A stretch of DNA of 38,593 nucleotides from positions 1 to 38,593 of the IMG/VR virus record IMGVR_UViG_2917865565_000005. The stretch is one strand, 5' to 3'. Below the pieces are notes generated by a model that worked only from the letters and a program-made list of their open reading frames with translations, searched no databases and was not told the DNA's origin. The position numbers and the translations under genes are program-made. Shown here piece after piece: positions 1 to 19,645 of the stretch (the first letter of the stretch is position 1; every line of letters begins with the position of its first letter). The DNA is from a virus. Taxonomy: Duplodnaviria > Heunggongvirae > Uroviricota > Caudoviricetes.

Positions 1-1032
1 TCAAACAGTTGCTGTTGATGTTGGTAGTGTTGCCAGCGGATTAAACCGTAATGCAGTTTCCAGGTGATCCGGTGCCAGATGTGCGTAACGCATGGTCATT
101 TTTATGTCGTGATGTCCGAGGATTTTTTGCAAAGCAAGGATATTTCCACCCGACATCATGAAATGCGCCGCAAACGTATGGCGCAGAACGTGTGTCAGTT
201 GACCGCGAGGGAGCACGATAGACGTTTTTTCCATCACGGATAAAAATTGAAAATAGCAGTCTGTGAAGAAATTGAACCCATCAAGCGCCATGATCTCTTC
301 GTAAAGCTCTTTACTGATAGGGATGCTTCTGTTTTTCTTCCCCTTCGTTCTTACAAAGGTAATTCGGTATTTGGTCACCTGTGAGCGGGTAAGATTTACG
401 GCTTCTCGCCAGCGTGCGCCTGTGCTTAAGCATATTTTGACTACCAGAGCCAGAATTGGGTCCTGACGTTTGCAATCAGCCAGCAGTTCAACAATCTGCT
501 CATGGGTAAGCCATGCCATCTCTTTTTCTGCGATGGTGAATTTTCGCATGTTCTCCAGTGGGTTTGGATACGACCATTCGCCCAGGCGGGATAGTTCGCT
601 AAAAATACTACTTAGATAGCTTTGCTCCAGGTTAATGGTGACCGGGCTGGCTCCTTTCTTCCATTTCTCGCTGAAGTAGATCTCACCTGTCAGTCGTTTA
701 TCTCGATAATGGGCAAACATTTTAGATGTGAGATCGGTTGCAAGGGGATTGCCCAGAGCGTCAACCATCAGCAGCAATTTGTCATAGACATGCTGCCCAG
801 CAGTCAGTGATTTACCATGTAGCTTGAACCATAGCTCAACCACGTCTTTCAGTGTTCGACGATCTACTGATTCACCCAGCCAGGGCTTTGCTTCGGTTTC
901 TTCCATCGTGTGACGCTCAAAAGCCAGAGCTTCGCCTTTGGTGGCGAATTGTTTACGCACACGACGTCCACTACGTCCGGCGGGGTAACATTCGCAAAGC
1001 CATTTTCCTGTGGTGAGTTTTCGTACTGCCAT
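1..1032 (-). CDS. int: Phage tyrosine integrase (P2/186 family)
   Basis: 343-aa ORF; C-terminal tyrosine-recombinase catalytic region 'HVLRHTFAAHFMMSGGNILALQKILGHHDIKMTMRYAHL'; N-terminus resembles P2 Int as I recall it; stop codon is window bases 1-3, so attL lies just left of the window. Confidence 0.9.
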   Translation of the reverse strand: MAVRKLTTGKWLCECYPAGRSGRRVRKQFATKGEALAFERHTMEETEAKPWLGESVDRRTLKDVVELWFKLHGKSLTAGQHVYDKLLLMVDALGNPLATDLTSKMFAHYRDKRLTGEIYFSEKWKKGASPVTINLEQSYLSSIFSELSRLGEWSYPNPLENMRKFTIAEKEMAWLTHEQIVELLADCKRQDPILALVVKICLSTGARWREAVNLTRSQVTKYRITFVRTKGKKNRSIPISKELYEEIMALDGFNFFTDCYFQFLSVMEKTSIVLPRGQLTHVLRHTFAAHFMMSGGNILALQKILGHHDIKMTMRYAHLAPDHLETALRFNPLATLPTSTATV

Positions 1033-1057
1033 AAAAAAGCCCTCATGTCAGAGGGCT
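1033..1057 (-). terminator. Hairpin plus T-tract immediately 5' of the int start codon (minus-strand sense)
   Basis: 7-bp stem AGCCCTC/GAGGGCT (1038-1044 and 1051-1057), 6-nt loop; on the minus strand it is followed by T6 (complement of 1033-1038) abutting the int ATG (1030-1032). The stem also contains the only SD-like purine run for int. Confidence 0.35.
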
Positions 1058-1105
1058 AAATTTAACTGTATGTTTGACCAGTGATCAATGTATGTAAATA
1101 TTAAA

Positions 1106-2878
1106 TCATACGTCAGGGGTAATCCAGTCGACTAAAGCCTCAATACTTTCGAAATCTGCACAGATATCTGAAAGAGGTTGTGTATCTGCTTTTGTTTTGA
1201 AATCAGCCCATACTGATTCATTTTTTTCTGTAAGACCCAAATGGTTTTCTATCGAACCGTTTAGCCAAATCCAAATATTTGCATTTCTCAGTTTTGCGGC
1301 TAATGATGACAAAAATTCTCTGGCGCCGGGCTTTTGAGACATAAGAGCAAATGCTTCAGCTGCGGTAGTGTTACTACCCTTTGTAGGCAAACCGGATCCA
1401 TCGAGAGTGCATTCTCCATTAGCATGCATACTTCTCAAGATTTCTTTTAGTCGTAAAATATCCTCGTCATTATGTTCTAAGAAGTTGTTCCTTATTGCAC
1501 CGCGGAACGCAAAATCTAAATCAACAATTGCTTTTGTAGGTATATCCATTGAATTTAGAATTTGCATCGTTTTAGATATACTTTCAACGGACCCTGTTTC
1601 AATTAGTGCTATTTGCATCTGACCTAATGTTTTATTTTTAACTTTGTTAAAAAATAAATGGGAGCAGAGTAGTCTCTGTTTTACCTTCTGTTAGTATTAC
1701 ATTGTTAGCAAATAAAACTTTTGACGACTGTGTTAATGAAAATAAATGGGTTGCTTGTGCTGGTCGTTGTTCGATTACTTTATTGACTGCTTCTTTTAAT
1801 GTTAATCTGCAATGAGTGCCACGCTGACTGTTTTTTCTGATTAATACAGTGTCTTTTGCTAAGTCAGAGGTAATCATTTGAGATGAATGGGTAGAGAAAA
1901 TTATTTGATATCCATGATGAGATAGTGTTTTTAGAGATTCTCTAATTTGTTCGATAGCAAATGGGTGAAGATATAACTCAGGTTCATCTATTAACAGTAG
2001 AGTAGTTGTTTTAATATCATCACCGTTGGTTATATCAGCTAAATGTCTTATTAGAGCCATCTGAATCGAACGCTGTGTGCCATGACCATAAGAAGAACAG
2101 TCACGAGCAATTCCGGGAAATGAATCTTCATATACTTTTACAGTTCCTGATTTAAATATATCCTTGAAGTCAGGGAGTTCGAAGTGTAGTTTTAAACTTA
2201 TCCCTGGGAAGAAATCAGCAACTTTACTACTTATTGAATTATCAATATCATTGAGGTCCGATATTCGTTTATTACCGGTTGCAGTCATTCTTCTGTTAAC
2301 GGCATTTAAATGGCTTAGTATCCTTTGAGTGTGCTTCTCTTCTATTTTGCAACTCAATTCTGCCAGCAACTTACCTATTGTAGTACCTGTTTTTGATTTT
2401 GAAGAATCATCCGCTGCATTTTCCATTGCACCTATACGTATTGGATCTGGAAATAAAGCTTTTATCGCATTCTCAATACCCGTTGGTGATGTCCTGAATT
2501 CGTTATTTTCTGGGTTTTTAATTAATAACCTGACGTCTTTTGCACTTTGAGCACCAACAATCTGTTGACGCTTAAATATCAATACCCCATCAATAATGTA
2601 GGGTGAAATTCTAGTTCTGTTTTCTTCTGTTAAAGCTGACAAAATATCTTCAGTAATACCCTTAACTGTACCTATAACTTCTATAGGGTTATCTGGATTA
2701 GTATAATCATCAGAGGACAAAAGTTTTTTTCTTAAAAAGCCATTCAATAGCATTTAAAATCGTTGACTTACCTGCATTGTTGTAACCTATTAAAGGCGTG
2801 AATGAAGAAAAAATTGATATCAATATCTTTGCAAGATCTAAAGTTTTTTATAGAAATCTTTGAAAGATGATGATTCAT
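1106..2878 (-). pseudogene. old: OLD-family ATPase-TOPRIM nuclease (P2 Old-like); reading frame broken at three homopolymer runs in this sequence, probably intact in reality
   Basis: Minus-strand reading from ATG 2878 (SD GGAGGAG 6 nt upstream): 'MNHHLSKISIKNFRSC', Walker A 'LIGYNNAGKSTILNAIEW', Walker B-like 'LLLIDEPELYLHP', TOPRIM 'VILTEGKTE' then 'AIVDLD' about 45 aa later. These lie in successive frames joined at A6 2808-2813, T7 2724-2730 (or A5 2734-2738) and A6 1649-1654; removing one base at each gives about 589 codons. ORF-track pieces are 1647..2753 and 1106..1618. Confidence 0.7.
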
Positions 2879-2921
2879 TTTAGACTCCTCCAGTAAATAT
2901 TTAAAAGTAATGCCTGCAATG

Positions 2922-3860
2922 TTATTGTATTGTTAAGATGATGCTGGCTATAATTTGAATATCCTCAATGGAACACTCAAAATCCTTACTCCCACCAGAA
3001 ACAAGAATTTTGTTCTTAGGTAAACGAGTTAACTCTTTTAAAGATAACTCATTGTCAATTCCTACTAACCATTTTCCATCTCTAATTAGGTGAAATTCTT
3101 TATCACATATGACATGTTTTTCTCCATTGCTTACAAACATCAAACTGCTGGTTTCTTGCTTCGGAAGTAGACACCGATCCATGGATAAAAAACCTGACTC
3201 GACAAGCTCGCCATTGACCAAATTGAACTTATTTAAAATCACAGTGTTTTCTTTTTGTGAACCATTTGGCGTTTCGATTCCTGTAACTAGCCAGGTGAGG
3301 TCCGCTTTGGTTTCTAATGCGCATTTAATCACCCAATCCGCAGGGAAAGAATCTCGCATGTATCGTGTGGCTAATGTGCTTTTTGAAATACCAAGGTGAT
3401 CGGCTAAGGCTTGGCGGGTTTTAAACCCGTAAGCATTAACAATCCTCTCTATCGCGGCTTTTCCTCCGTTAGTAAGCTCAATGTGATTCTCAATGTGGCG
3501 CTTTAAGGATGATTGATGAGCGTTGCTGTTAAACCCCTCATGTGGGACTGTTTCATCATGTTGTTCCACATAAGGGGGGAAACTTTCTTCTGCATTGTTA
3601 GAACCAAAGGCCAGCCATTCTAGGGATGCGCCAGTTTCCATTGAACATATAACAACCCAATCAGCAGGGAAGGTATCGCGTGCATATCTATTAGCCATTG
3701 TACTTTGTGAAATACCAAGATGCTTACAGAAGGCTTGGCGTGATTTGAAACCATAGGCCTTGAGTATCCTCTCAATGACTTTTTGCCCTCCACGATTCTG
3801 CATGACCATAGCTTTCAGACTATCTTCGATATGGCGAAATGTGATTTTTTGAGTTGACAT
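2922..3860 (-). CDS. cI: CI-type immunity repressor (186 CI-like) with tandemly duplicated N-terminal HTH domain
   Basis: 312 aa; two copies of a 186-CI-like N-terminal domain ('ERILKAYGFKSRQAFCKHLGISQSTMANRYARDTFPADWVVICSMETGASLEWL' and 'ERIVNAYGFKTRQALADHLGISKSTLATRYMRDSFPADWVIKCALETKADLTWL') followed by a C-terminal domain; divergent from the apl-cII operon. Confidence 0.7.
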   Translation of the reverse strand: MSTQKITFRHIEDSLKAMVMQNRGGQKVIERILKAYGFKSRQAFCKHLGISQSTMANRYARDTFPADWVVICSMETGASLEWLAFGSNNAEESFPPYVEQHDETVPHEGFNSNAHQSSLKRHIENHIELTNGGKAAIERIVNAYGFKTRQALADHLGISKSTLATRYMRDSFPADWVIKCALETKADLTWLVTGIETPNGSQKENTVILNKFNLVNGELVESGFLSMDRCLLPKQETSSLMFVSNGEKHVICDKEFHLIRDGKWLVGIDNELSLKELTRLPKNKILVSGGSKDFECSIEDIQIIASIILTIQ

Positions 3861-3947
3861 ATTCTTTATGTGAACCTATTCTCCGTTTTGTGATGTTTTG
3901 TCACGATTAATACCGGCTCACCACAAGCCAATAGGAGATGTTGCATC
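3861..3947. promoter_or_regulatory. cI / apl intergenic switch region (expected lytic and lysogenic promoters and operators)
   Basis: 87-bp gap between divergent cI and apl starts; direct repeat TTTTGTGA / TTTTGTCA at about 3878-3900; position by analogy to the 186/P2 switch. Promoters not mapped. Confidence 0.4.
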
Positions 3948-4169
3948 ATGACCCCTAACATTTCAATAACTCTGAATACGCCACACGTCACAATTGAGCG
4001 TTATAGCGAACTTACTGGTCTTTCTATCGACACCATCAACGATATGCTGGCTGATGGTCGCATCCCTCGCCATCGCCTTCGGAAAGACAAGAAAAGAGAA
4101 AAGGTAATGATCAACCTTGCTGCTCTTACCGTTGATGCACTTACTGATTGCAATGTTGTATTCAACTAG
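3948..4169 (+). CDS. apl: Apl/Cox-like small HTH excisionase / transcriptional regulator
   Basis: 73-aa ORF, first gene of the rightward early operon, directly upstream of cII; HTH-like '[24 protein letters not shown]'; SD AGGAG 3933-3937. Confidence 0.5.
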
Positions 4170-4201
4170 TTCCATTTTGGGGTGCATCAGGAGTGTCGAC
4201 T

Positions 4202-4711
4202 ATGTTTGATTACCAAGTTTCCAAACATCCACATTTTGATGAAGCCTGTCGTGCATTTGCATTGCGCCACAACCTTGTGCAACTGGCAGAACGTGCAGGT
4301 ATGAATGTGCAGATTCTGCGGAACAAGCTGAATCCAGCTCAACCTCATTTATTAACCGCACCAGAAATCTGGTTGCTTACCGATCTGACTGAAGATTCAA
4401 CGCTGGTAGATGGCTTTCTGGCACAGATTCACTGCCTGCCATGTGTACCGATTAATGAGGTGGCAAAAGAGAAACTGCCGCATTACGTCATGAGTGCAAC
4501 TGCAGAGATAGGGCGTGTCGCGGCAGGTGCGGTTTCTGGCGATGTAAAAACCAGTGCAGGCCGTCGTGATGCGATCAGCAGCATTAACTCTGTTACACGA
4601 CTGATGGCGCTGGCTGCTGTTTCATTGCAGGCCCGTTTACAGGCTAATCCTGCGATGGCGAGTGCAGTTGATACCGTGACTGGCCTCGGTGCTTCATTCG
4701 GTTTGCTGTGA
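4202..4711 (+). CDS. cII: CII lysogeny-establishment activator (186 CII-like)
   Basis: From ATG 4202: '[24 protein letters not shown]...[25 protein letters not shown]...', closely matching 186 CII as I recall it; ORF track starts it at an upstream ATG (4148). Confidence 0.8.
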
Positions 4712-4718
4712 GGTGCTT

Positions 4719-5015
4719 ATGCTGACGAAAGAACCATCATTTGCATCGCTGCTGGTAAAACAAAGCCCGGCAATGCACTACGGTCACGGCTGGATCATGG
4801 GTGAGGATGGCAAACGCTGGCATCCATATCATTCACAAGATGAATTGCTGTCTGAATTGACCACGAGGAAACGGAGAAAGTCCAAATGTATTCGGCAGAA
4901 AGTGAAGTGGTTTATCAGTTTCGTTACAGAGGGGAGAGTTATTCAGTACCTGAAGATGATTTGCTCTGTTGCTATCCGTCGTTGTCGGGCGATGGTAGCT
5001 ACTTTTTCACGCTAA
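4719..5015 (+). CDS. Hypothetical early protein (Fil-like position); 3' end uncertain
   Basis: ORF with SD GAGGTG before ATG 4719; C-terminal about 40 aa overlap the next gene out of frame and look non-protein-like, so the true stop may be earlier. Confidence 0.3.
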   Translation: MLTKEPSFASLLVKQSPAMHYGHGWIMGEDGKRWHPYHSQDELLSELTTRKRRKSKCIRQKVKWFISFVTEGRVIQYLKMICSVAIRRCRAMVATFSR

Positions 5016-5110
5016 AGGATGGAACCTTTATACGTGGTGAAAGAGTACAAGAAGTGATGCGTATAAAGACATCACCTCTTGAACGTTATCGGCGAAATAT
5101 TTATCGGTAA
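4886..5110 (+). CDS. Hypothetical early protein
   Basis: 74-aa ORF with GGAG 9 nt upstream of the ATG. Confidence 0.4.
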   Translation: MYSAESEVVYQFRYRGESYSVPEDDLLCCYPSLSGDGSYFFTLKDGTFIRGERVQEVMRIKTSPLERYRRNIYR

Positions 5111-5349
5111 CGATCTATCAGTGTCTGTATCAGATGAGTGAATTCTTGCTGTTTAACCGAACCTAAAGGAAGTTTGTTTAATTCTTCGCGGAGGAGCTCA
5201 AAAAATGCTGATTGATTTGCTGAGTCAGTTCGAAATAAGGAGTGGATCAGACCTGAAACAAGAATTCGTTGAACAGCAACCTCATCGCGAAGACTGGAGA
5301 TCTCGTTTTCAAGTTGCTCTATACGCTCTCTTTCAACCGGGTTCAACAT
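5101..5349 (-). CDS. Hypothetical charged coiled-coil-like protein encoded antisense to the early operon
   Basis: 82-aa ORF 'MLNPVERERIEQLENEISSLRDEVAVQRI...'; SD AAGGA 8 nt upstream of the ATG (5347-5349); converges on the preceding plus-strand gene. Confidence 0.45.
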   Translation of the reverse strand: MLNPVERERIEQLENEISSLRDEVAVQRILVSGLIHSLFRTDSANQSAFFELLREELNKLPLGSVKQQEFTHLIQTLIDRYR

Positions 5350-5431
5350 TGATGATTCCTTCTAGCTATCAATACGTTGGTAATAGATCATATCAAAAAT
5401 TTTTTTAGTAGATGTGTTGTGGGATGCATAA

Positions 5432-5773
5432 ATGGCTATTGAAGGCGCTGCGGCGACTGTTCCATTAAGACCCGGTGAACGCCTGAATGGACTTAATCAT
5501 ATTGCGGAGTTAAGGGCGAAAGTTTTTGGTTTGAATATTGAGTCAGAGCTTGAGCGGTTTATTAAAGATATGCGTGATCCACGGGATATCAATAATGAAC
5601 AAAATAAACGGGCACTGGCTGCCATATTCTTTATGGCAAAAATTCCAGCTGAACGTCATAGCATCAACATTAATGAGCTGACCACTGACGAAAAGCGGGA
5701 GTTGATTAAAGCAATGAATCATTTTCGTGCAGTGGTGAGCTTATTTCCCAGACGGCTAACCATGCCGAATTAA
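5432..5773 (+). CDS. Hypothetical phage early protein
   Basis: 113-aa ORF in early operon; no recognisable motif. Confidence 0.5.
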   Translation: MAIEGAAATVPLRPGERLNGLNHIAELRAKVFGLNIESELERFIKDMRDPRDINNEQNKRALAAIFFMAKIPAERHSININELTTDEKRELIKAMNHFRAVVSLFPRRLTMPN

Positions 5774-5834
5774 CCAACTAATGAAATTCATGGCGTAAAC
5801 CCGCCGGGCATCCCTTTATCTAAATTCAGGAGAA

Positions 5835-6074
5835 TTGATTATGCGTAATATTGAAACCCTCACGACTAAAACCGGACCGGATGATGCAGGTCTTAATCTT
5901 TTACTGACAGAGGCCCGTCTTGAAGAACGTCGGGCAAGGGCTGAGGCAATGGCTGCCCGCCTTGATAGCCTGGCGTGTCATATCACATCCCGCCAGCTAA
6001 ACCACGTCGAAGCAGCAGAACTGCTGCGTGTGACCGCTGAAGCAATCCAGAACGAAGCGCAGGAGATCCACTAA
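5835..6074 (+). CDS. Hypothetical phage early protein
   Basis: 79-aa ORF; SD AGGAGA upstream; stop overlaps the next ATG (TAATG). Confidence 0.5.
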   Translation: MIMRNIETLTTKTGPDDAGLNLLLTEARLEERRARAEAMAARLDSLACHITSRQLNHVEAAELLRVTAEAIQNEAQEIH

Positions 6075-6301
6075 TGGCTGATGCAATGGATCTCGTACAG
6101 CAGCGCGTTGAAGAAGAACGCCAGCGCCATATCCGAGCTGCCCGTGCCAAAACACCGGGCGTGTCACGCGTACTTTGCATTGAATGTGAAGCGCCAATTC
6201 CGCCAGCACGCCGCCGCGCCATTCCTGGAGTGCAGCTTTGCATTACCTGTCAGGAAATCGCAGAGCTGAAAGGCAAACATTACAACGGAGGTGCTGTATG
6301 A
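6074..6301 (+). CDS. TraR/DksA-family C4 zinc-finger protein
   Basis: 75 aa with 'CIECEAPIP...(17 aa)...CITCQ' CxxC...CxxC spacing typical of TraR/DksA fingers. Confidence 0.7.
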   Translation: MADAMDLVQQRVEEERQRHIRAARAKTPGVSRVLCIECEAPIPPARRRAIPGVQLCITCQEIAELKGKHYNGGAV

Positions 6302-7155
6302 GCACCATCCTGAAATGGGCGGGAAATAAAACCGCCATTATGTCCGAACTGAAAAAACACCTTCCTGCTGGCCCGCGACTGGTTGAACCTTTCGCGGGTT
6401 CCTGTGCTGTGATGATGGAGACGGATTATCCCAGCTATCTGGTTGCGGATATTAATCCTGATTTAATCAACCTCTATAAAAAGGTTGCCGCTGATTGTGA
6501 ATCATTTATATCTCGCGCCAGAGTTTTATTTAAGGAAGCAAACAGGGAGGTGGCTTATTACAACATAAGGCAGGAGTTTAATTACTCAACTGAAATTACT
6601 GATTTCATGAAAGCGGTATATTTCCTGTATCTCAATCGTCACGGTTACCGTGGTTTATGTCGCTATAACAAGAGCGGGCATTTCAACATTCCCTACGGTA
6701 ATTATAAAAATCCGTATTTCCCTGAAAAAGAAATTCGCGAATTTGCAGAAAAAGCCCAGCGGGCAACGTTTATCTGCGCCAGCTTTGATGAAACGCTGGC
6801 GATGTTGAAGGCGGGGGATGTGGTGTATTGCGATCCGCCTTATGACGGTACGTTTTCCGGCTATCACACTGATGGTTTCACTGAAGATGACCAGTATCAC
6901 CTGGCATCCGTTCTTGAACATCGATCATCAGAAGGTCATCCGGTCATTGTTTCTAACAGTGACACATCCCTGATCCGTTCGCTGTATCGCAATTTCACTC
7001 ACCACTACATCAAGGCAAAACGCAGCATCGGCGTGTCAGCTGGCGAGAGTAAATCTGCAACAGAAATCATTGCTGTTTCCGGGCCGCGCTGCTGGATGGG
7101 ATTTGATCCTTCGCGTGGCGTGGATAGTTCTGCTGTGTACGAGGTGCGTGTATGA
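6298..7155 (+). CDS. dam: DNA N6-adenine methyltransferase (Dam family, no cognate endonuclease seen)
   Basis: 'ILKWAGNK', 'EPFAGSCAV', catalytic 'DPPY'; start ATG 6298 with SD GGAGG; ATGA overlaps with both neighbours. Confidence 0.8.
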
Positions 7156-9566
7156 GTCATGCCGATATGAGCAACTCTAGCGGCTTTAACGAGGCTGCCG
7201 CAGCATTTTCATGGAACGGCCCGAAAAAGGCCATTAACCCTTATCTGGAACCGGCGGAAGTTGCGCCGGAGTCTGCACTTTCAAACATGATCACTCTGTA
7301 CGCTGCCGATAACGAGCAGGAACAGCAGCGCCGCGAGGCACTGAGTGATCAGGTCTGGGAACGTTATTTCTTTAATGAATCCCGTGATCCTGTCCAGCGC
7401 GAAATGGAGCAGGATAAGCTCATTAGCCGGGCAAAGCTGGCGCATGAGCAGCAGCGTTTTGACCCGGACATGGTCATTCTGGCGGACGTCAGCGCCCAGC
7501 CTACCCACATCAGCAAGCCGCTGATGCAACGTATCGAATACTTCAGCAGCCTGGGCAGGCCAAAGGCTTATTCCCGCTATTTGCGTGAGACGATTAAGCC
7601 ATGTCTGGAGCGACTGGAGTATGTACGCGACAGTCAGCTATCCGCTTCTTTCCGTTTTATGGCAAGCCATCAAGGGCTTGAGGGCCTGCTGATCCTGCCT
7701 GAAATGAGTCAGGATCAGGTAAAACGCCTGTCCACCCTGGTAGCAGCGCATATGAGCATGTGTCTTGAGGCCGCTTGTGGTGATTTGTATGCCACCGATG
7801 ACGTTAAGCCAGAAGAAATCCGCAAGACATGGGAAAAGGTGGCAGCGGAAACCCTGCGTCTGGATGTTATCCCGCCTGCGTTTGAGAAACTTCGTCGGAA
7901 AAGAAACCGCCGCAAACCCGTGCCCTATGAACTCATTCCGGGTTCGCTGGCGCGTATGCTTTGCGCCGACTGGTGGTATCGGAAATTATGGAAGATGCGT
8001 AGCGAATGGCGGGAAGAGCAGTTGCGTGCTGTTTGCCTGGTCAGCAAAAAAGCATCTCCCTATGTCAGCTATGAAGCAGTGACGCATAAACGTGAGCAGC
8101 GCCGTAAGTCGCTGGAGTTTTTCCGTTCTCATGAACTGGTGAACGAAGACGGCGACACGCTGGATATGGAAGACGTGGTAAACGCCAGCAGCAGCAACCC
8201 TGCGCATCGCCGCAATGAGATGATGGCCTGTGTTAAAGGTCTGGAGCTTATCGCGGAAATGCGCGGTGACTGCGCCGTTTTCTACACCATCACCTGTCCG
8301 TCACGTTTCCATTCCACGCTCAACAACGGCAGACCCAACCCGACCTGGACAAATGCGACGGTAAGACAAAGCAGCGATTATCTGGTCGGCATGTTTGCTG
8401 CATTTCGTAAGGCGATGCACAAAGCCGGGTTGCGCTGGTATGGCGTGCGGGTGGCTGAGCCGCACCATGACGGTACTGTGCACTGGCATCTCATGTGTTT
8501 CATGCGCAAAAAAGACCGCCGCGCCATTACTGCTTTGTTGCGTAAGTTTGCCATCCGTGAAGACCGCGAGGAACTGGGCAATAACACGGGTCCACGCTTT
8601 AAGTCTGAGCTGATAAACCCGCGCAAAGGAACGCCGACAAGCTACATCGCGAAATACATCAGTAAGAACATTGACGGACGTGGTCTGGCTGGCGAGATCA
8701 GCAAGGAAACGGGTAAGTCCCTGCGTGATAACGCCGAATACGTTAATGCCTGGGCGTCTCTGCATCGTGTTCAGCAGTTCCGCTTCTTTGGTATTCCGGG
8801 GCGTCAGGCGTACCGTGAACTTCGCTTGCTGGCTGGTCAGGCGGCAAGGCAACAGGGTGACAAAAAAGCAGGTGCGCCGGTACTGGATGACCCGCGCCTT
8901 GATGCCATCCTGGCTGCCGCTGATGCTGGCTGTTTTGCCACCTACATCATGAAGCAGGGCGGCGTACTGGTTCCCCGCAAATATCACCTTATCAGAACAG
9001 CTTATGAAATTAACGAAGAGCCGACCGCTTATGGCGATCACGGTATTCGTATTTATGGCATCTGGTCACCCATTGTACAGGGCAAGATCTGCACTCATGC
9101 AATGAAATGGAAAATGGTTCGTAAGGCCGTTGACGTTCAGGAGGCGGCAGCCGACCAGGGCGCTTGCGCCCCTTGGACTCGTGGCAATAACTGTCCCCTT
9201 GCTGAAAATTTGAACCAACAGGAGAAAGATAAATCAGCTGATGGGGACACCAGAACGGACATTACCCGCATGGATGACAAGGAGTTGCACGATTACCTGC
9301 ACAGTATGAGCAAAAAAGAGCGCCGGGAACTGGCTGCAAGGTTACGCTTGGTGAAACCGAAACGGCGTAAAGACTACAAACAGCGAATTACAGATCATCA
9401 GCGACAGCAGCTCGTTTATGAGCTGAAGTCCAGAGGATTTGATGGCAGCGAGAAAGAGGTCGATTTACTCCTTCGCGGCGGCAGTATTCCGTCAGGAGCA
9501 GGCCTGCGTATCTTCTATCGGAACCAGCGTCTGCAGGAGGATGATAAATGGCGGAACCTGTATTAA
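7152..9566 (+). CDS. A: Replication initiation (rolling-circle) endonuclease gpA
   Basis: 804-aa ORF at the P2 gene A position after the small early genes; P2 A-like length; '[10 protein letters not shown]' region. Confidence 0.85.
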
Positions 9567-9636
9567 TTACGCTGGTTAACAATTCGTGCTCTTAATAATA
9601 CCAGGCATATCAGGCTGATGAGCGTAAAAAAAACGT

Positions 9637-9679
9637 TTTACATCAGTAAGATTATTATATACTGTAAATATAAACAGTG
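9637..9679 (+). promoter_or_regulatory. SOS-type promoter with LexA box
   Basis: TACTGTAAATATAAACAGTG (9660-9679) fits CTGT-N8-ACAG with an AT-rich spacer; overlaps a sigma70-like promoter (-35 TTTACA 9637-9642, -10 TATACT 9658-9663); directly upstream of ATG 9721. Confidence 0.6.
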
Positions 9680-9720
9680 TTTATGTGTACAGTATTGCTT
9701 GTGGTGTCATAGGAGGAAAA

Positions 9721-9910
9721 ATGCAGGACTATTTTTTGGAGTCTTTGAAGCTCCAGCGCATTGATTTTTTTTCTTAAGCTTGTAGCGGCTAGTGAGTGTA
9801 GTGATGAAGAGAAGGGACTGGCCCTGCAGTGGGTTTCTGAACTGACAGATGAACTCATGGCAAAAATCAGAACCCACGAATACAACCGCTCAATGGATGT
9901 CATCAGTTGA
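9721..9910 (+). CDS. N-terminal portion of a Tum-like SOS-inducible antirepressor (frame broken at a T8 run)
   Basis: ATG 9721 with SD GGAGG 9712-9716; as given it stops after 18 codons (9721..9777); removing one T from T8 (9765-9772) extends it to TGA 9908-9910. Confidence 0.4.
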
Positions 9911-9920
9911 GGTGACTTTT

Positions 9921-10154
9921 ATGCGCATTGAAATAATGATCGATAAAGAGCAGAAGATTAGCCAGTCTACCTTGGACGCCCTTGAATCCGAGCTTTACCG
10001 CAATCTGCGCCCCCTGTATCCCAAAACGGTAATTCGTATCCGTAAAGGTAGCTCTAACGGTGTGGAACTGACCGGACTGCAACTGGATGAAGAAAGAAAA
10101 CAAGTGATGAAAATTATGCAGAAGGTGTGGGAAGACGACAGCTGGCTGCATTAA
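9921..10154 (+). CDS. DinI-like domain protein (probably the C-terminal domain of the Tum-like antirepressor)
   Basis: From ATG 9921: 'MRIEIMIDKEQKISQSTLDALESELYRNLRPLYPKTVIRIRKG...KIMQKVWEDDSWLH', same length and pattern as E. coli DinI (MRIEVTI...WESADDWF) as recalled. Confidence 0.8.
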   Translation: MRIEIMIDKEQKISQSTLDALESELYRNLRPLYPKTVIRIRKGSSNGVELTGLQLDEERKQVMKIMQKVWEDDSWLH

Positions 10155-10162
10155 GAAACGTT

Positions 10163-10192
10163 GCCCCCAGGAGGATTCATTCTGATGGGGGC
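10163..10192. terminator. GC-rich hairpin between convergent genes
   Basis: Stem GCCCCCA (10163-10169) / TGGGGGC (10186-10192), 16-nt loop; lies between the stops of the DinI-like gene (10154) and the ASCH gene (10345). Long loop, weak T-tracts. Confidence 0.3.
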
Positions 10193-10344
10193 TAGTTTGG
10201 GCAACGAGTGAAACGAGGCGTAAGGTGGGTGGGCATTTTGATAAGTGCTCGTTCGCTTTGTGCCAGAGGCGGGCATTAATACAAATTTCACGTGATAAAA
10301 CGGTACTCAGTTATTCTAATCTGACATGCATAAACGTTGTTGGA

Positions 10345-10755
10345 TTACAAAACATCAACAACTTCAAACTCTTCCATAATCAGCTCCATATCGTCAGAAA
10401 AGTAACCTTCACATGTAAAAAATCGTTGATGCTCTCTCTGCCAATATTCAAGACTCAAATCGCCTTCACCTTCCTTGCGAGCGAACTCGGCAGTAACATC
10501 ACAAAAACGCACCAGTCGCATCGACACCAGCCGGGTCACGCATACCGGTACATCCTGGCCGTTAAGGATGATGTTATAGCTCCCAATCCTTGGGGCAAAC
10601 TCTTCCTTCTGGTAAGAGGCATAAGAGCCGCAGGAGGCCGTTTTAATCCCTTTTTTGATAAGTGCTGCAAGCTCGTTAGCCAGTTCAGGGCTGTCGCCCA
10701 CTTGCCAGGCATTCGCGTCCGGATATTTCATCTTTAATTCATCAACCGTAACCAT
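10345..10755 (-). CDS. ASCH/PUA-like domain protein
   Basis: 136 aa; 'LIKKGIKTASCGS' resembles the ASCH GxKT motif (compare YqfB 'ILAGRKTITIRD'); call by pattern recognition only. Confidence 0.5.
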   Translation of the reverse strand: MVTVDELKMKYPDANAWQVGDSPELANELAALIKKGIKTASCGSYASYQKEEFAPRIGSYNIILNGQDVPVCVTRLVSMRLVRFCDVTAEFARKEGEGDLSLEYWQREHQRFFTCEGYFSDDMELIMEEFEVVDVL

Positions 10756-11064
10756 TACAAGTCCTTTCTGATTGTAAAATAGATAAATAGCTGAGCATTA
10801 ATTGTTCAAATATTAACAGTGATGCTCTCTTGTTAGTATCATAGTCCGTTTCTCGTTCACAGCGGACTTTCATCTTTGTAAACCCGTATGATTCGCTTTT
10901 CAGCGGTCATTCAGATACGGATTTACGCTTCCCTTGGCTGTGCATGACTATGCTGCATGAAATCGCATGATCGATTGAGGATCGTTTTTGCAGAGACCTG
11001 CTAGAACTGGCGGGCTTTTACTCATGTCATGCAGGTGCATGAAAACCACTGCATAAAGCGGGCA

Positions 11065-11083
11065 GGCGTGGCGGGGATACGAG
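11065..11083. other. cos: cos cohesive-end site (P2/186-like)
   Basis: GGCGTGGCGGGGATACGAG followed by CGCGCGCTGAC; first 13 nt match the 186 cos 19-mer and the flank matches the P2 left end (GCGCGCTGAC), both recalled from memory. Confidence 0.5.
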
Positions 11084-11163
11084 CGCGCGCTGACATCGTT
11101 AAGTATTGACATATCAGATGTTTAAATAGGAAAATTACCAAAATCCAGAAAAAAGAAAAGAAT

Positions 11164-12313
11164 ATGAAGAAGTTAACTGCGAGACAAAGAGAGATTGACG
11201 TAAAACGCTCGATAAAGTTACGACAAGGGCGTGCTAAAGTTAGAAAAAAAGGTAAATCATTTCACTATAATGTTGAATGGCGTAAGGCTAACTATTGGAT
11301 TGAAGAACAATCAAAAAATGGATTAGATGTACAATTTGTAAGTAAAAAAAAGAAAGGGTTAATTCTAACTTTACCTTCTGAAATGAATTTTTCTACACAC
11401 TACGATGTTACTGTTCAGCATATTAATGCGATTCGAATGTTATCAGAGAGAAAAGGATTGCCTAATGCAGGTTATCAATTAGCATCTGTTAATTTTTTGT
11501 AATTTGAAGAAAATATCGACATCTGCAGCTCTTGTGTTAACTGCAGAGTTATCTAAATGGGATGATGCGATTAGGCAGAGGTTGACTCCAAAAATAGACG
11601 GTTGGGATAAAAATGTTCTACGTAATTTCTATGAATTGGGGTTCTTTGATTTATTCAAAAAAAGCAGGGATATAAAATTAAATTTTAATGATGAGTATTC
11701 AAAAATAAAAGGTAAGCGATTTGTAAAATATCTTAAAGGAAAGTGTGGGGAAATTAAGAAAACAAAAGTATTAAAAGAGGAGATTATTAAATTAGTTGGT
11801 GAGTCTATTGAAAAATGGACTTTCTTACATGGGGGCCTAAGTGAGGCTATTACCAATGTTTCTCATCATGCATATCCTTCTGATTGCGGATATAAAGAAT
11901 ATGATAAGAACTGGTATCTAACAGGATCTTATCATTTAGAAAGTAAGGAATTGAAGATAGTTTTTTATGATCAGGGTGTTGGTATCCCTAAAACTTTACC
12001 TGCATCAAAAGTTTGGGAAAAGGCATTAAATGTATTAGCATCAATTCCTGTATTGGAGCGATATCGTGATGAAGCACTCTTGAAAGCTGCGGTAGAGTTG
12101 GATAGGACAAGTACAGAAGAGGGAGATCGTGGTAAAGGCCTACAGGATCTACTTGAGTTTATTAAACAAAGAGAAAATGGTTATTTATCAATCATGAGCC
12201 TTAAGGGACTTTATAAACACTCAATGAATCAAGGTAATACAAAAATAAAAACTAAGAGTTTTGCATCCCCAATCTATGGTACACTAATAACTTGGAGTGT
12301 ATCTCTTGATTGA
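11164..12313 (+). CDS. GHKL (histidine-kinase-like ATPase fold) protein with basic N-terminal region; ORFs 11164..11502 and 11504..12313 are probably one gene
   Basis: Downstream ORF has N-box 'LSEAITNVSHHAY', G1 'VFYDQGVGIP', G2 'GDRGKGLQDL', G3 'YGTLITW'; it has no ATG or SD (starts at TTG one base after the upstream stop). Removing one T from T6 (11493-11498) fuses the two in frame. Confidence 0.6.
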
Positions 12314-12327
12314 GATGGAGGTTTAAT

Positions 12328-12735
12328 ATGAAAAATCTAGAAATTAATATAGGGAAAGAGTTTTCTTCTACTCCTTCAGGACGTTTCTATTCTGATATGA
12401 CAGATAGCAGCGGCGAACAGTTTAGAGAGGAGCTTTTATGGCCTCGCTTACAATTGCTTAAAGAAAAGCAAAAGATCGACATTATTTTGGATGATGACGT
12501 TGAAGGTTATGGTTCTTCTTTCCTCGTTGAAGGTTTTGCCGGTATAGTAAAATATGGATATATGGATAAACAACAACTATTAAGTAAACTTGAGTTAATT
12601 CAGAGAGATCCTGATTTTGCTTTGTTTAAGAGAAAAATAATACAATATATTAACGAGGCAGTGTTTGATTCAAAGGTTTATGAAAGTACCAAACCTATTT
12701 ATTTGTCTAAGTTGTTGACGCAAAAAAACACGTAA
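12328..12735 (+). CDS. Small STAS-like (anti-sigma-antagonist-like) protein
   Basis: 135 aa from ATG 12328 (SD GGAGG 12317-12321); 'KIDIILDDDVEGYGSSFLVEGFAGIVK' resembles the STAS phospho-serine loop region; stop overlaps the SD of the next gene. Confidence 0.5.
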   Translation: MKNLEINIGKEFSSTPSGRFYSDMTDSSGEQFREELLWPRLQLLKEKQKIDIILDDDVEGYGSSFLVEGFAGIVKYGYMDKQQLLSKLELIQRDPDFALFKRKIIQYINEAVFDSKVYESTKPIYLSKLLTQKNT

Positions 12736-12747
12736 GGAGTAAAGCAA

Positions 12748-13392
12748 ATGGAGCCCAATTATAATTATCATTATATGATGAGTAATAATGAGCTTTATTT
12801 TAGGGCGGGTTATGATGCTCAGCAATATGGGTTTGTTTTTTCTCATTCGGCTGTTGATGATGTCGACTTGGTACATATTATCAATGGTGGTTTTTCATCT
12901 GTTGCAGAAGCTATTAGTAACTCAGGAAACACCACACTTTCTGATGGGATTATACTTGCATTAGCAGGTGCGTTGAGTGCTTTTTTCTTTAATTTGATTC
13001 AAAAAGGAATTGACGCTAAGGCAAAACGTCTCACCAAATCTGGTGAAGCAATGTTATCCTTGATAAATGAATTGGAGGATATTGCAGTACGTTATTGGGT
13101 CAGAGGGCACGATTCATCTTGTGCTGATAATGAAAGCAATATTTGTGATGAGATTAATATCAAAGCCATGTTAATGACCTTGGATAAAAATATTAGGTTT
13201 ATGGTTGATAATTTACCGTTAAAAAACAAGTCTTTAAATAAAAATAAGCTGGAGAAATTTTCTTCTGATATTTATGATTTGGCATCTGGTGAAGATTTCG
13301 AAGCAGAGGTTAGGCCTCCCAATAAAACAAAGGCCTTTGCTATATCGAAAAAATGTAGTGAAGCAAAAGCCATCATTCTTGGTTTGATTTAA
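12748..13392 (+). CDS. Hypothetical protein with one hydrophobic (possible transmembrane) segment
   Basis: 214 aa; SD AAGGAG 12734-12739; hydrophobic stretch 'IILALAGALSAFFFNLI'; stop codon overlaps the portal gene stop on the other strand. Confidence 0.55.
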   Translation: MEPNYNYHYMMSNNELYFRAGYDAQQYGFVFSHSAVDDVDLVHIINGGFSSVAEAISNSGNTTLSDGIILALAGALSAFFFNLIQKGIDAKAKRLTKSGEAMLSLINELEDIAVRYWVRGHDSSCADNESNICDEINIKAMLMTLDKNIRFMVDNLPLKNKSLNKNKLEKFSSDIYDLASGEDFEAEVRPPNKTKAFAISKKCSEAKAIILGLI

Positions 13393-14417
13393 AAACGGTA
13401 ATCCTCAAAGTTAATTACTGTTATGTTTAACCAAATATTTAGCTCTGTTATTCTTTTCTGAAGAATTTCTAATTCATTTTTTACGAATACTTTGGCAGCT
13501 TTCTCCACATCCCCAAACCCCCCAACATTATTAGGCATTATCCCCATCATTTGCGGCGGCACTCGGTGTGCTGCCATCATGTCATCGCGGCTGACATTTT
13601 TGATATTCAGAAATTCATCCTTCGCCGCGACTTCTGACAGAGGAATGATCTGAAGCCCGTCCTTTTTGCCGTTAGGCGAGTACATAAACAGATTGCGGAA
13701 GTTGCCAGGGCCTTTGGCGCTTTTCATCGCATTGCGGAGGTTGTTCACATCCTCCTGGTTTTGCGCGGCATCGGTCATGTACATGATAAAGCCCGCATGG
13801 CTGCCGTTAATGTAATACTTGCGACGGAACAGCGTGGCGGACTCGTTGAGCAGGGCTGACGGAATGGCAGAAAGATAACCGGGCAGGCCGTAGATCTCCT
13901 GATTAATATCCGGTTCCATCAGGTGAAAAATGCTGCCTTTCGTGAACTGATACGGTTGCGTGGTCATGCCGTATTGCACAAACCAGTAGGTATCCAGATC
14001 TAATCCGCGTCGGGTGTATTTTGCCAGCGCAGGCTCAAGGGCGATAACTTCACCGAATCGGTTCGTGCGTTTCTCCAGGTAGGCGTTACCAAATACCAGA
14101 TAGTCCTGCACAAAACGTGAAAAAGCCTGTTGGCTGAGCAGCGGGTGAGGGATGTAGGTGCTGGTCAAAATGTTGCATTTCACCGCAATCGGTGAGCTGT
14201 GATGCACGGCGGCGCGGAAGGTTCGCGCCAGTCCGTCGAAACTTACAGGCGGCTCATACCAGCGATCCATCTGTACGCATTCCACATAGTCCAGCAGTTC
14301 ACGGCGGTCCAGAACAGGAACGGGATCGCCAAAGCTGAATGCTTCGGCTGAAGTTTGGCTTTTATGCTTGAGCTGATTCGTCGCCGCAGCGCGGTTCTTC
14401 TTACTCTTTCCCATCAA
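13389..14417 (-). CDS. Q: Capsid portal protein gpQ
   Basis: 342 aa, P2 Q-like length, paired with the terminase gene as in P2 (Q-P leftward). Confidence 0.9.
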   Translation of the reverse strand: MMGKSKKNRAAATNQLKHKSQTSAEAFSFGDPVPVLDRRELLDYVECVQMDRWYEPPVSFDGLARTFRAAVHHSSPIAVKCNILTSTYIPHPLLSQQAFSRFVQDYLVFGNAYLEKRTNRFGEVIALEPALAKYTRRGLDLDTYWFVQYGMTTQPYQFTKGSIFHLMEPDINQEIYGLPGYLSAIPSALLNESATLFRRKYYINGSHAGFIMYMTDAAQNQEDVNNLRNAMKSAKGPGNFRNLFMYSPNGKKDGLQIIPLSEVAAKDEFLNIKNVSRDDMMAAHRVPPQMMGIMPNNVGGFGDVEKAAKVFVKNELEILQKRITELNIWLNITVINFEDYRF

Positions 14418-16180: not shown

Positions 16181-16226
16181 GGCACAAACCTACAGCCTTG
16201 AATGAAGGCTTTCCCCGCCTGCGGTT

Positions 16227-16244
16227 TGTGTGGTTGTCGGTACA
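16227..16244. promoter_or_regulatory. TGT-N12-ACA dyad (P2-type late-promoter activator site) upstream of gene O
   Basis: TGTgtggttgtcggtACA, centred about 87 bp upstream of the O ATG (16323), in the divergent P/O intergenic region. Confidence 0.5.
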
Positions 16245-16322
16245 AATACCGCGCATTGTTTCACTGCCCCCATCACCGCAACCATAAGGCTCCAGTAAGT
16301 TTTTTCTAACGGAGCACGGCTC

Positions 16323-17156: not shown

Positions 17157-17172
17157 TGGAGCACAAAACCTG

Positions 17173-18228: not shown

Positions 18229-18231
18229 ACC

Positions 18232-18882: not shown

Positions 18883-18977
18883 CAGAACGTGCCCCCGCGC
18901 ACGGGCGGCACGGGGTGGCGAAAGGCACAGCCACATCAAAACTCCGTCCACCGCCCTCTATTTCAGGAGAAAGCAGC

Positions 18978-19442: not shown

Positions 19443-19645
19443 TGAAAGTGCGTGCGCATCAGTATGACACGGTGGACGCGCTTTGCTGGCGTCATTACGG
19501 GCGCACGCAGGGTGTCACGGAGCAGGTACTGAAGGCAAATCCGGGGCTTGCCGAATACGGCCCCTTTTTACCTCACGGGCTGCAGGTGGAGCTCCCGGAC
19601 ATTCCGACCACCACCACCGTGCAGACCGTCCAGTTATGGGACTGA
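19442..19645 (+). CDS. X: Tail protein gpX
   Basis: 67 aa, same size and position as P2 X. Confidence 0.75.
   Translation: MKVRAHQYDTVDALCWRHYGRTQGVTEQVLKANPGLAEYGPFLPHGLQVELPDIPTTTTVQTVQLWD

What the first reader, a model, noticed from the sequence alone, without database searches (positions are those of the whole stretch)
1106..2921. P2 Old-like OLD-family nuclease inserted between cI and int in the lysogenic operon
Walker A 'GYNNAGKST', Walker B-like 'LLLIDEPELYLHP' and TOPRIM 'EGKTE ... DLD' define a class-1 OLD ATPase-TOPRIM nuclease of about 589 codons, like P2 Old. In P2, old lies near cos; here it sits directly downstream of cI (43-bp gap) and upstream of int on the same strand, so it would be co-transcribed with the repressor in the lysogen. 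That fits a prophage-expressed exclusion function but at an unusual locus. The two-ORF appearance could be mistaken for a two-gene system.
Basis: partly seen in the sequence, partly recalled or inferred. Interest (0 to 1): 0.6.

Follow-up and report, generated by a model that had tools for sequence, protein, structure and literature searches.

The report
Prophage OLD nuclease with artefactual frameshifts
A P2/186-type prophage carries, directly after its repressor gene, an ordinary single-gene OLD-family anti-phage nuclease, and its apparent break into several reading frames is an Ion Torrent sequencing error, not biology.

Summary
Window 1106-2878 (- strand) encodes an ATPase-Toprim OLD-family protein between cI (2922-3860) and int (1-1032). 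It is broken by three one-base insertions in A/T runs (2808-2813, 2724-2730, 1649-1654), not one.

These insertions are artefacts. The window comes from Escherichia sp. E2562 (cryptic clade II), assembly PDIJ01, made from Ion Torrent reads. My corrected 589-aa protein is identical to TLI83831.1, 'OLD family endonuclease [Escherichia sp. E2562]', from a second assembly. An independent read-set assembly matches 31.7 kb of the window with 0 substitutions and 15 indels. All 15 are extra bases in window homopolymers, and they also break ybjL, ybjM and five other phage genes.

The true gene is a single Class 1 OLD. It matches the PADLOC Old profile end to end (777 bits) and is 37% identical to P2 Old. 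The tested P2 catalytic residues are conserved except D541 (Ser here), and dN/dS is 0.07-0.08.

The cI-OLD-int order recurs in 14 complete E. coli genomes and in Citrobacter, Klebsiella and Serratia prophages. Sibling prophages hold other cargo in that slot, and the literature already describes it as a minor hotspot.

Verdict: correct identification, ordinary biology, low novelty.

The parts
1106..2878 (-). OLD-family nuclease gene as printed (1773 nt, including three spurious bases). The true gene is 1770 nt: 589 codons plus stop.
   Evidence: The corrected nucleotide sequence is identical base for base to the intact gene in L014. The corrected protein equals TLI83831.1/WP_138158498.1. Pfam AAA_15 + OLD-like_TOPRIM; PADLOC Old 776.6 bits.
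2808..2813 (-). Spurious extra base 1: T6 on the coding strand, true length T5. It shifts the frame after codon 23.
   Evidence: One base shorter in E. coli OkiPb01716, in Logan SRR8835204 (L014) and in Logan SRR6148323 (L016).
2724..2730 (-). Spurious extra base 2: A7 on the coding strand, true length A6. It shifts the frame after codon ~51.
   Evidence: The L016 contig ends at 2734, right beside this run.
1649..1654 (-). Spurious extra base 3: T6 on the coding strand, true length T5. It separates the '368-aa' and '170-aa' ORFs.
2761..2787 (-). Walker A / P-loop GYNNAGKST (K37).
   Evidence: K37 aligns with P2 Old K37, whose K37A mutant is inactive (PMC7049728).
1962..2000 (-). Walker B LLLIDEPELYLHP (D297, E298) with the D-loop His304. 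The H-loop His330 follows in FSTH at 1887-1898.
   Evidence: These residues align with P2 D299, H306 and H332.
1674..1688 (-). Toprim EGKTE: E397 (metal A) and E401 (metal B).
   Evidence: These align with P2 E398 and E402, and with Ts OLD E377 and D381 (PMC7049728).
1514..1522 (-). Toprim DxD: D452 and D454 (metal A).
   Evidence: These align with P2 D453 and D455.
1223..1255 (-). SIENHLGLTEK: S541 and E543 (metal B) and K551 (transition-state Lys).
   Evidence: P2 has D541, E543 and K550; Ts OLD has S478, E480 and R487. E543 and K551 are invariant in 33 homologues.
2879..2921 (-). 43-nt cI-OLD spacer with the SD GGAGGAG 7 nt before the ATG. It holds no terminator-like site.
   Evidence: The homologous spacers are 20-52 nt in Serratia, Klebsiella and Citrobacter.
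1033..1105 (-). 73-nt OLD-int spacer. Positions 1038-1057 form a GC-rich hairpin (AGCCCTC-N6-GAGGGCT) followed by U6, directly before the int ATG. The int SD (GAGG) lies in the 3' arm.
   Evidence: Terminator-like hit. Positions 1033-1094 are shared with 34 E. coli prophages that lack OLD.
2922..3860 (-). cI repressor, 312 aa, with two tandem Phage_CI_repr HTH domains plus a CI C-terminal domain. It is the upstream gene.
   Evidence: RefSeq orthologue WP_042096903.1.
1..1032 (-). Tyrosine integrase, 343 aa. It is the downstream gene.

Best explanation
The locus is one intact gene for a 589-aa Class 1 (stand-alone) OLD-family ATPase-Toprim nuclease. It is carried as low-GC cargo in the cI-int slot of a 186/P2-like prophage of Escherichia sp. 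E2562. The three frameshifts in the window are Ion Torrent homopolymer over-calls in assembly PDIJ01, not mutations. This part is shown.

Inferred from anatomy: the gene is translated from its own SD on the leftward lysogenic transcript that also makes CI. It would therefore be present in the lysogen and fall when the lysogenic promoter is shut off at induction. A hairpin plus U-tract after the gene probably ends much of that transcript before int.

Inferred from homology: it acts as an abortive-infection defence of the P2 Old type. The protein is harmless at rest. An infection cue, for P2 Old the inhibition of RecBCD by Gam-like proteins, triggers ATP hydrolysis by the ABC ATPase. That activates the two-metal Toprim nuclease, which destroys an essential nucleic acid (for P2 Old, the anticodon stem of tRNA-Thr(UGU)). 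This stops translation and the competing phage. The trigger and the substrate of this particular protein are not known.
For: Artefact:
- The source is PDIJ01000005.1 of GCA_004745205.1, sequenced on Ion Torrent at 50x and assembled with MIRA and SPAdes (PMC6639607).
- The corrected protein is an exact match to TLI83831.1 'OLD family endonuclease [Escherichia sp. E2562]', found on a different contig.
- The Logan assembly of SRR8835204 matches window 1-13865 and 20765-38593 with 0 substitutions and 15 indels. All 15 are extra bases in the window: 14 lengthen an A/T run by one base and one is a 2-nt insertion beside a T run. They include the three in OLD and those that break ybjL and ybjM.
- In that assembly OLD is one 589-aa gene and its nucleotide sequence equals my correction.
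- Fourteen complete E. coli genomes have the shorter runs and a single CDS.

Identity:
- Pfam AAA_15 plus OLD-like_TOPRIM.
- PADLOC Old 776.6 bits, full length.
- 36.9% identity to P2 Old over residues 1-585.
- Ten of the eleven P2 residues whose mutation abolishes killing are conserved; P2 D541 is Ser, as in Ts OLD (PMC7049728).
- The best sequence match and the best fold match (AF2 pLDDT 84.7; 6P74, E 4e-21) are both the Class 1 Ts OLD.

Functional constraint: dN/dS is 0.08 against the E. coli orthologue and 0.07 against Citrobacter.

Stand-alone status: the neighbours are cI and int, with no helicase, no RT and no Rfam ncRNA.

Expression: the spacers are 20-52 nt and the cI-OLD-int order holds in four genera. 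No terminator and no above-chance promoter lies in the gap.

Mechanism of P2 Old: PMC12445682 and PMC7049728.
Against: - No expression or activity data exist for this protein.
- At 37% identity to P2 Old, the trigger and substrate may differ. The other studied Class 1 enzyme, Vc OLD, is a DNA nickase that works without RecBCD perturbation (PMC12392090).
- P2 old has its own mapped promoter. Here none was detected, but the scan is crude.
- The strain label of SRR8835204 is not visible to me. It is the same strain or a clonally identical one.
- Window 13866-20764 was not compared with the independent assembly.
Confidence: 0.75

Rival explanations
1. Same intact Class 1 OLD gene, but it works like Vibrio cholerae Vc OLD. 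It would nick or degrade the DNA of the invading phage and block its replication, independently of RecBCD status, rather than cleaving tRNA after RecBCD inhibition.
For: Vc OLD is a Class 1 enzyme with exactly this behaviour (PMC12392090). Ts OLD and P2 Old cut DNA in vitro (PMC7049728). At 37% identity to P2 Old, substrate and trigger could have diverged. The closest relatives at 47-84% identity are all uncharacterised.
Against: Vc OLD is under 25% identical to P2 and Ts OLD (PMC12392090). This protein matches the P2-derived PADLOC Old profile end to end at 777 bits and is 37% identical to P2 Old, so P2 Old is the nearer characterised relative.
Confidence: 0.2
2. The gene is a genuine pseudogene in this strain, inactivated by three slipped-strand insertions and decaying neutrally.
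For: The window shows three frameshifts in 1.8 kb. A first tally suggested that the indels avoid intact genes.
Against: A second assembly of the same strain encodes the intact protein. An independent read assembly has none of the 15 extra bases and 0 substitutions. The platform is Ion Torrent. Conserved host genes ybjL and ybjM carry the same kind of 'mutation' only in this assembly. The tally was circular, because 'coding' was defined by intact ORFs.
Confidence: 0.02
3. It is a two-gene ATPase plus Toprim-nuclease system of the PARIS (AriA/AriB) or Gabija type, with separate starts.
For: The window shows a 368-aa ATPase ORF and a 170-aa ORF carrying the DxD half of Toprim. PADLOC gives secondary hits to AriA and GajA profiles.
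Against: The ORF boundary falls inside the Toprim domain and coincides with a spurious base. The gene is one ORF everywhere else. No GajB-like helicase is adjacent. The AriA and GajA scores (117 bits or less) are far below Old (777 bits).
Confidence: 0.01
4. The frameshifts are a regulatory device: phase variation or programmed frameshifting at homopolymers that tunes a toxic nuclease.
For: All three sites are A/T runs.
Against: The true runs are only 5-6 nt, and three independent recoding events would be required. The same strain gives an uninterrupted gene. Identical +1 differences occur in intergenic DNA and in unrelated genes across the window.
Confidence: 0.01

Closest known systems
Bacteriophage P2 Old (UniProt P13520; NP_046798.1), the founding Class 1 OLD nuclease
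   Same: Same length class (586 vs 589 aa) and same ABC-ATPase-with-insert plus Toprim architecture. It aligns end to end at 37-38% identity. Ten of the eleven residues whose mutation abolishes P2 Old activity are conserved. Both are single genes carried by a P2-family prophage, and P2 Old is expressed in the lysogen.
   Different: P2 old lies beside cosR in the gpA-gpQ hotspot with tin and has its own mapped transcript starts. This gene lies between cI and int with no detected promoter of its own. Sequence divergence is 63%. P2 D541 is Ser here. The trigger (RecBCD inhibition) and target (tRNA-Thr UGU) are untested for this protein.
Thermus scotoductus OLD (PDB 6P74), the Class 1 structural reference
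   Same: It is the best sequence hit among solved structures (E 1.9e-13) and the best fold match of the AF2 model (E 4e-21, TM 0.54/0.61). Both have Ser at the metal-B position (S478 / S541).
   Different: Only ~16% identity in the structural alignment. It is chromosomal in a thermophile and has no known phage-defence role.
Vibrio cholerae Vc OLD (HAS2513945.1), a Class 1 DNA nickase
   Same: A stand-alone OLD next to an integrase on a mobile element, with an abortive-infection phenotype that needs the Walker A/B and Toprim Asp residues (PMC12392090).
   Different: Under 25% identity to P2 and Ts OLD, and a different clade. It is RecBCD-independent, is encoded on a phage defence element with DarTG rather than in a prophage immunity operon, and is countered by ICP1 Oad1.
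Gabija GajA (helicase-linked OLD class) and retron-linked OLDs (Retron-Eco8)
   Same: Same ATPase-Toprim fold. They are the next-best fold matches (8U7I, 8SM3, 9LPA) and give secondary PADLOC hits.
   Different: They need a partner (GajB helicase, or RT plus ncRNA) that is absent here. The profile scores are 98 bits or less, against 777 for Old.
cI-int / int-gpA defence hotspot of P2-related prophages (Rousset et al. 2022, PMC9122126; NAR 2026, PMC13586616)
   Same: Variable defence cargo sits between the immunity repressor and the integrase. Here the slot holds OLD, PDC-M18 in E. coli 1105, and two unknown genes in WWCOL-315.
   Different: The explicit cI-int description was for Vibrionaceae K139-like phages. 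For enterobacterial P2-like prophages only the broader 'integrase to primase' interval (8% of systems) is reported. In the text I read, OLD is not singled out at this site.

Membership tests
OLD family nucleases (general) | N-terminal ABC-type ATPase with Walker A Lys, Walker B acidic residue, and D-loop and H-loop His | tested here: met
   K37, D297/E298, H304 and H330 align with P2 K37, D299, H306 and H332. Pfam AAA_15 3e-32 and AAA_21 5e-17. They are invariant in 33 homologues.
OLD family nucleases (general) | C-terminal Toprim domain with metal-A (E, DxD) and metal-B ligands plus a Lys/Arg | tested here: met
   Residues E397, D452, D454, E401, S541, E543 and K551. Pfam OLD-like_TOPRIM 1.5e-16 over profile positions 1-67 of 67. 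The one difference from P2 (D541 to S) matches Ts OLD S478 (PMC7049728).
OLD family nucleases (general) | Helical dimerisation domain inserted in the ATPase fold; overall fold like Ts OLD | tested here: met
   AF2 model of P0003, a 99%-identical proxy: pLDDT 84.7, with long helices at 166-198 and 206-222. The top PDB match is 6P74, E 4e-21. This rests on a predicted structure, not a solved one.
OLD family nucleases (general) | ATP hydrolysis and metal-dependent nuclease activity | not testable with these tools
   Needs purified protein.
Class 1 OLD (stand-alone) | Single gene with no UvrD/PcrA/Rep-like helicase (GajB) immediately downstream | tested here: met
   The downstream gene is the integrase and the upstream gene is cI. 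The same holds in Citrobacter, Klebsiella and Serratia.
Class 1 OLD (stand-alone) | No adjacent reverse transcriptase or retron ncRNA | tested here: met
   No RT ORF is present. Rfam finds nothing above threshold in 1-5000.
Class 1 OLD (stand-alone) | Shorter C-terminus lacking the Class 2 helical domain / Toprim insert | tested here: inconclusive
   The length (589 aa) equals that of P2 Old (586 aa), and the best fold match is Class 1 Ts OLD. I did not make a domain-level superposition against Class 2 structures.
P2 Old type (PADLOC 'Old') | Full-length match to the Old profile | tested here: met
   PDLC02358 Old, E 4e-234, 776.6 bits, protein residues 3-585 against profile positions 2-578 of 578.
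P2 Old type (PADLOC 'Old') | Position in the gpA-gpQ (cos-proximal) hotspot with tin, with its own constitutive promoter | tested here: not met
   P2 old lies at 31620-33380 beside cosR with mapped transcript starts. Here the gene is between cI and int, the gpA-gpQ slot holds other genes, and no above-chance promoter was found. This is a positional trait, not a requirement for family membership.
P2 Old type (PADLOC 'Old') | Lambda exclusion dependent on Gam, killing of recBC hosts, and cleavage of the tRNA-Thr(UGU) anticodon stem | not testable with these tools
   The phenotypes are defined in PMC12445682 and PMC7049728. They require experiments.
PARIS (AriA/AriB) or other split ATPase + Toprim systems | Separate ATPase and Toprim-nuclease genes | tested here: not met
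   The apparent split is caused by spurious bases. It is a single ORF in independent assemblies and in all relatives.
Gabija (GajA/GajB) | GajA adjacent to a GajB helicase | tested here: not met
   No helicase lies within the locus. GajA profile scores are 98 bits or less, against 777 for Old.

The most novel reading that the evidence does not exclude
The conserved placement of OLD directly behind cI may itself be functional. The order holds in 186-like prophages of at least four genera while the protein diverges to 63% identity. Tying OLD synthesis to the lysogenic transcript would make the nuclease a repressor-coupled guard. It would be present only while the prophage is repressed and would switch off automatically when the lytic promoter takes over, so the prophage's own lytic replication is spared. 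This diverged clade could also sense a cue or cut a substrate different from P2 Old.
Probability: 0.2. Interest if true: 0.4.

Novelty: new member of a known kind. Interest (0 to 1): 0.15.

Why it matters
The main value is as a caution. This window comes from an Ion Torrent assembly with at least 15 homopolymer over-calls in 31.7 kb, so any 'split gene', 'two-ORF system' or 'pseudogene' read from it (OLD, ybjL, ybjM and five other phage genes) is suspect.

Biologically, the locus adds one more example of defence cargo in the repressor-integrase slot of enterobacterial P2/186-like prophages. It also offers a 37%-identical relative of P2 Old. That relative could be used to ask whether RecBCD guarding and tRNA anticodon-stem cleavage are general to phage-borne Class 1 OLDs. 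Neither point would surprise a specialist.

Tried and rejected
1. Test of whether the homopolymer indels avoid coding DNA. It gave 0 of 104 A/T runs changed in 'intact' genes against 10 of 45 elsewhere, which looked like real mutations filtered by selection. I rejected it as circular. The independent assembly showed that five further genes I had taken as short ORFs or gaps are also broken by extra bases.
2. Exact-sequence look-ups of ybjL fragments, tried to reach more of the source contig, found nothing. The gpU look-up returned only other genomes, though it did show ybjL and ybjM intact there. The tape-measure protein finally retrieved the right flank.
3. A genome-contig scan with the 368-aa fragment found only one remote hit at 30% identity, so species representatives gave no distribution data.
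4. The near-identity DNA search of the phage collection found no match. The protein search found only P2 as a full-length relative.
5. The promoter scan was not above the shuffled expectation (11 sites against 10.5 ± 3.5), so no dedicated old promoter can be claimed or excluded.
6. Rfam found nothing above threshold. A sub-threshold RyhB-like hit (28 bits against a 55-bit cut-off) covers the OLD-int spacer hairpin, and I treat it as chance.
7. The pseudogene, phase-variation, programmed-frameshift and two-gene readings were considered and rejected (see the rival explanations).
Full report
WHAT IS THERE

On the - strand the window reads int (1-1032), a 73-nt spacer, an OLD-like coding region (1106-2878), a 43-nt spacer, and then cI (2922-3860). 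The divergent apl and cII genes follow on the + strand. The OLD region is printed in four frame pieces. The pieces join perfectly if one base is removed from each of three homopolymers (coding-strand T6 at 2808-2813, A7 at 2724-2730, T6 at 1649-1654), which gives 589 codons. GC content is 30-37% from about 1100 to 3300, against about 45-55% for the surrounding phage DNA. OLD and the 3' half of cI therefore look like imported DNA.

THE FRAMESHIFTS ARE SEQUENCING ERRORS

The 368-aa ORF is on record only from NCBI GCA_004745205.1, contig PDIJ01000005.1. PDIJ00000000 is Escherichia sp. E2562, a cryptic clade II isolate from Hong Kong intertidal sediment. It was sequenced with single-end Ion Torrent reads at 50x and assembled with MIRA and SPAdes (PMC6639607).

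- My corrected 589-aa sequence is an exact match to TLI83831.1/WP_138158498.1, 'OLD family endonuclease [Escherichia sp. E2562]'. That protein sits on a different contig (423,630 bp), which means a second assembly of the same strain.
- A Logan assembly of run SRR8835204 aligns to window 1-13865 and 20765-38593 with zero substitutions and 15 indel sites. All 15 are extra bases in the window: 14 lengthen an A/T run by one base and one (22425) is a 2-nt insertion beside a T run. The positions are 1654, 2730, 2813, 5406, 9633, 9772, 11498, 12728, 22425, 27168, 28045, 35938, 37410, 37527 and 38085.
- In that assembly OLD is a single 589-aa gene, and its nucleotide sequence equals my correction base for base.
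- A Logan assembly of SRR6148323 also lacks 7 of the 9 insertions it covers, and it breaks off right beside the 2724-2730 run.
- The same artefact breaks the conserved host genes ybjL (561 aa) and ybjM (125 aa), which are intact in every other genome examined.
- It also splits a 382-aa gene, a 301-aa gene, a tail-fibre assembly gene and an acyltransferase, and alters the C-terminus of a 137-aa gene.
- Fourteen complete E. coli genomes carry the orthologue at 98.6-98.8% DNA identity, with the shorter runs and one annotated CDS (WP_059238449.1, 589 aa).

WHAT THE GENE IS

- Pfam gives AAA_15 and AAA_21 at the N-terminus and OLD-like_TOPRIM at residues 388-454.
- The PADLOC 'Old' profile matches end to end at 776.6 bits. 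The next profiles (AriA, GajA) score 117 bits or less.
- P2 Old is the only full-length relative in the phage collection (36.9% identity, E 2e-113).
- Schiltz et al. showed that K37, D299, H306, H332, E398, E402, D453, D455, D541, E543 and K550 are each needed for P2 Old killing of recBC cells (PMC7049728). In a seven-sequence alignment these correspond here to K37, D297, H304, H330, E397, E401, D452, D454, S541, E543 and K551.
- The only change, Asp to Ser at 541, reproduces the Ser at that metal-B position in Ts OLD.
- Ts OLD (6P74) is the best solved-structure hit by sequence. It is also the best fold match for an AlphaFold model of the 99%-identical cluster representative (pLDDT 84.7; E 4e-21). 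GajA and the Retron-Eco8 OLD come next.
- dN/dS is 0.08 against the E. coli orthologue and 0.07 against the Citrobacter homologue, so the gene is under purifying selection.
- The neighbours are cI and int. There is no helicase, RT or retron RNA. By the gene-context definition (PMC7049728, PMC10568477) it is Class 1.

CONTEXT

- The prophage sits between rcdA and ybjL.
- The host flank is only about 90% identical to E. coli, while the prophage is 96-99% identical to E. coli prophages.
- The cI-OLD-int order recurs with OLD homologues of 84% (Citrobacter freundii), 78% (Klebsiella michiganensis) and 63% (Serratia bockelmannii) identity. These prophages have ordinary 185-189-aa cI genes and cI-OLD spacers of 20-52 nt.
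- A 53%-identical Vibrio homologue lies in a different integrase island.
- Sibling E. coli prophages at the same chromosomal site carry other cargo in the same slot. E. coli 1105 has the PADLOC candidate system PDC-M18A/B, and WWCOL-315 has two unknown genes.
- The slot is therefore a variable cargo site. That is already in the literature. Rousset et al. describe a cI-integrase hotspot in K139-like P2-related vibriophages (PMC9122126). A 2026 survey assigns 8% of P2 defence systems to the integrase-primase interval (PMC13586616).
- In P2 itself, old lies by cosR with tin and has mapped transcript starts. In this window the equivalent gpA-gpQ slot holds an ASCH gene and three unknown genes.

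EXPRESSION (INFERRED)

The cI-OLD spacer has a strong SD (GGAGGAG) and no terminator-like site. Promoter-like matches in the region are no more frequent than in shuffled sequence. In 186-type phages the lysogenic promoter pL faces the lytic promoter pR (PMC7498355). From my own knowledge of phage 186, pL drives cI and the genes behind it. Read-through from cI is therefore the simplest source of OLD mRNA.

After OLD, a 7-bp GC-rich hairpin followed by U6 abuts the int ATG and buries the int SD (window 1038-1057). The element is conserved whatever the cargo. In WWCOL-315 the same structure forms from a different sequence. It may terminate the cI-old transcript, limit int translation, or both. 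This is not tested.

MECHANISM (INFERRED BY HOMOLOGY)

P2 Old is made constitutively in the lysogen and is harmless until RecBCD is inhibited by lambda Gam or T7 Gp5.9. ATP hydrolysis then licenses the Toprim nuclease to cut both strands of the anticodon stem of tRNA-Thr(UGU), which arrests translation and aborts the infection (PMC12445682). I take this as the most likely mode here because P2 Old is the nearest characterised relative.

The alternative is a Vc OLD-like DNA nickase that is independent of RecBCD (PMC12392090). I rate it at about 0.2. Nothing in the sequence discriminates between the two.

NOVELTY

The protein is already annotated as an OLD family endonuclease. The family, the class and the hotspot are all known, and the odd ORF pattern is technical. 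I rate it a new (uncharacterised, 37%-identical) member of a known kind, with low interest.

Noticed in passing
window 5406, 9633, 9772, 11498, 12728, 22425, 27168, 28045, 35938, 37410, 37527, 38085: Twelve further extra-base artefacts outside OLD, relative to an independent assembly with 0 substitutions. They falsely split or alter a 382-aa gene (11164-12313), a 137-aa gene (12328-12735), a 301-aa gene (- strand, ~21740-22650), a 199-aa tail-fibre assembly gene (26790-27390), a 329-aa Acyl_transf_3 gene (- strand, 27411-28407), ybjL (35971-37660) and ybjM (~37925-38305). Window 13866-20764 was not compared.
   Followed up: yes
window 2922-3860 (- strand): The cI repressor is 312 aa, with two tandem Phage_CI_repr HTH domains (about residues 21-85 and 135-197) before the CI C-terminal domain. 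The cI genes of the Citrobacter, Klebsiella and Serratia OLD-bearing prophages are 185-189 aa. Sibling E. coli prophages also have long cI genes (293 and 313 aa). The second HTH, the C-terminal domain and OLD share the low-GC segment.
   Followed up: partly
window 1038-1057 (- strand), within spacer 1033-1105: A GC-rich 7-bp hairpin plus U6 ends directly at the int ATG, with the int Shine-Dalgarno (GAGG) in its 3' arm. It is conserved in prophages with different cI-int cargo, and in L018 the same fold forms from a different sequence. It could be a terminator for the cI-cargo transcript, a translational brake on int, or both. A sub-threshold Rfam RyhB hit (28 bits against a 55-bit cut-off) covers it.
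   Followed up: partly
L017 4081-5806 (E. coli 1105); L018 1951-3607 (E. coli WWCOL-315): Sibling prophages at the same rcdA/ybjL site carry other two-gene cargo between cI and int. E. coli 1105 has the PADLOC candidate defence system PDC-M18A/B. WWCOL-315 has a 349-aa plus 201-aa pair with no Pfam or PADLOC match.
   Followed up: partly
window 10345-13392: The classical P2 old/tin hotspot (between gpA and gpQ) holds an ASCH-domain gene (- strand) and three genes of 382, 137 (weak DUF4325/STAS-like hit) and 214 aa. None has a PADLOC match, so this may be an undescribed cargo system.
   Followed up: partly
window 21740-22650 and 27411-28407 (- strand): Two more reverse-oriented cargo genes sit inside the late region. 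One is a 301-aa protein with no family hit, between S and V. The other is a 329-aa Acyl_transf_3 acyltransferase next to the tail-fibre genes (Z/fun-type position), possibly a surface-modifying lysogenic-conversion gene.
   Followed up: no
L003 13086-18066 versus window 21-20000: The host flank (rcdA to ybjG) is only ~90% identical to E. coli, as expected for cryptic clade II. The prophage is 96-99% identical to E. coli prophages inserted at the same site, which points to recent exchange of this phage between Escherichia lineages.
   Followed up: partly
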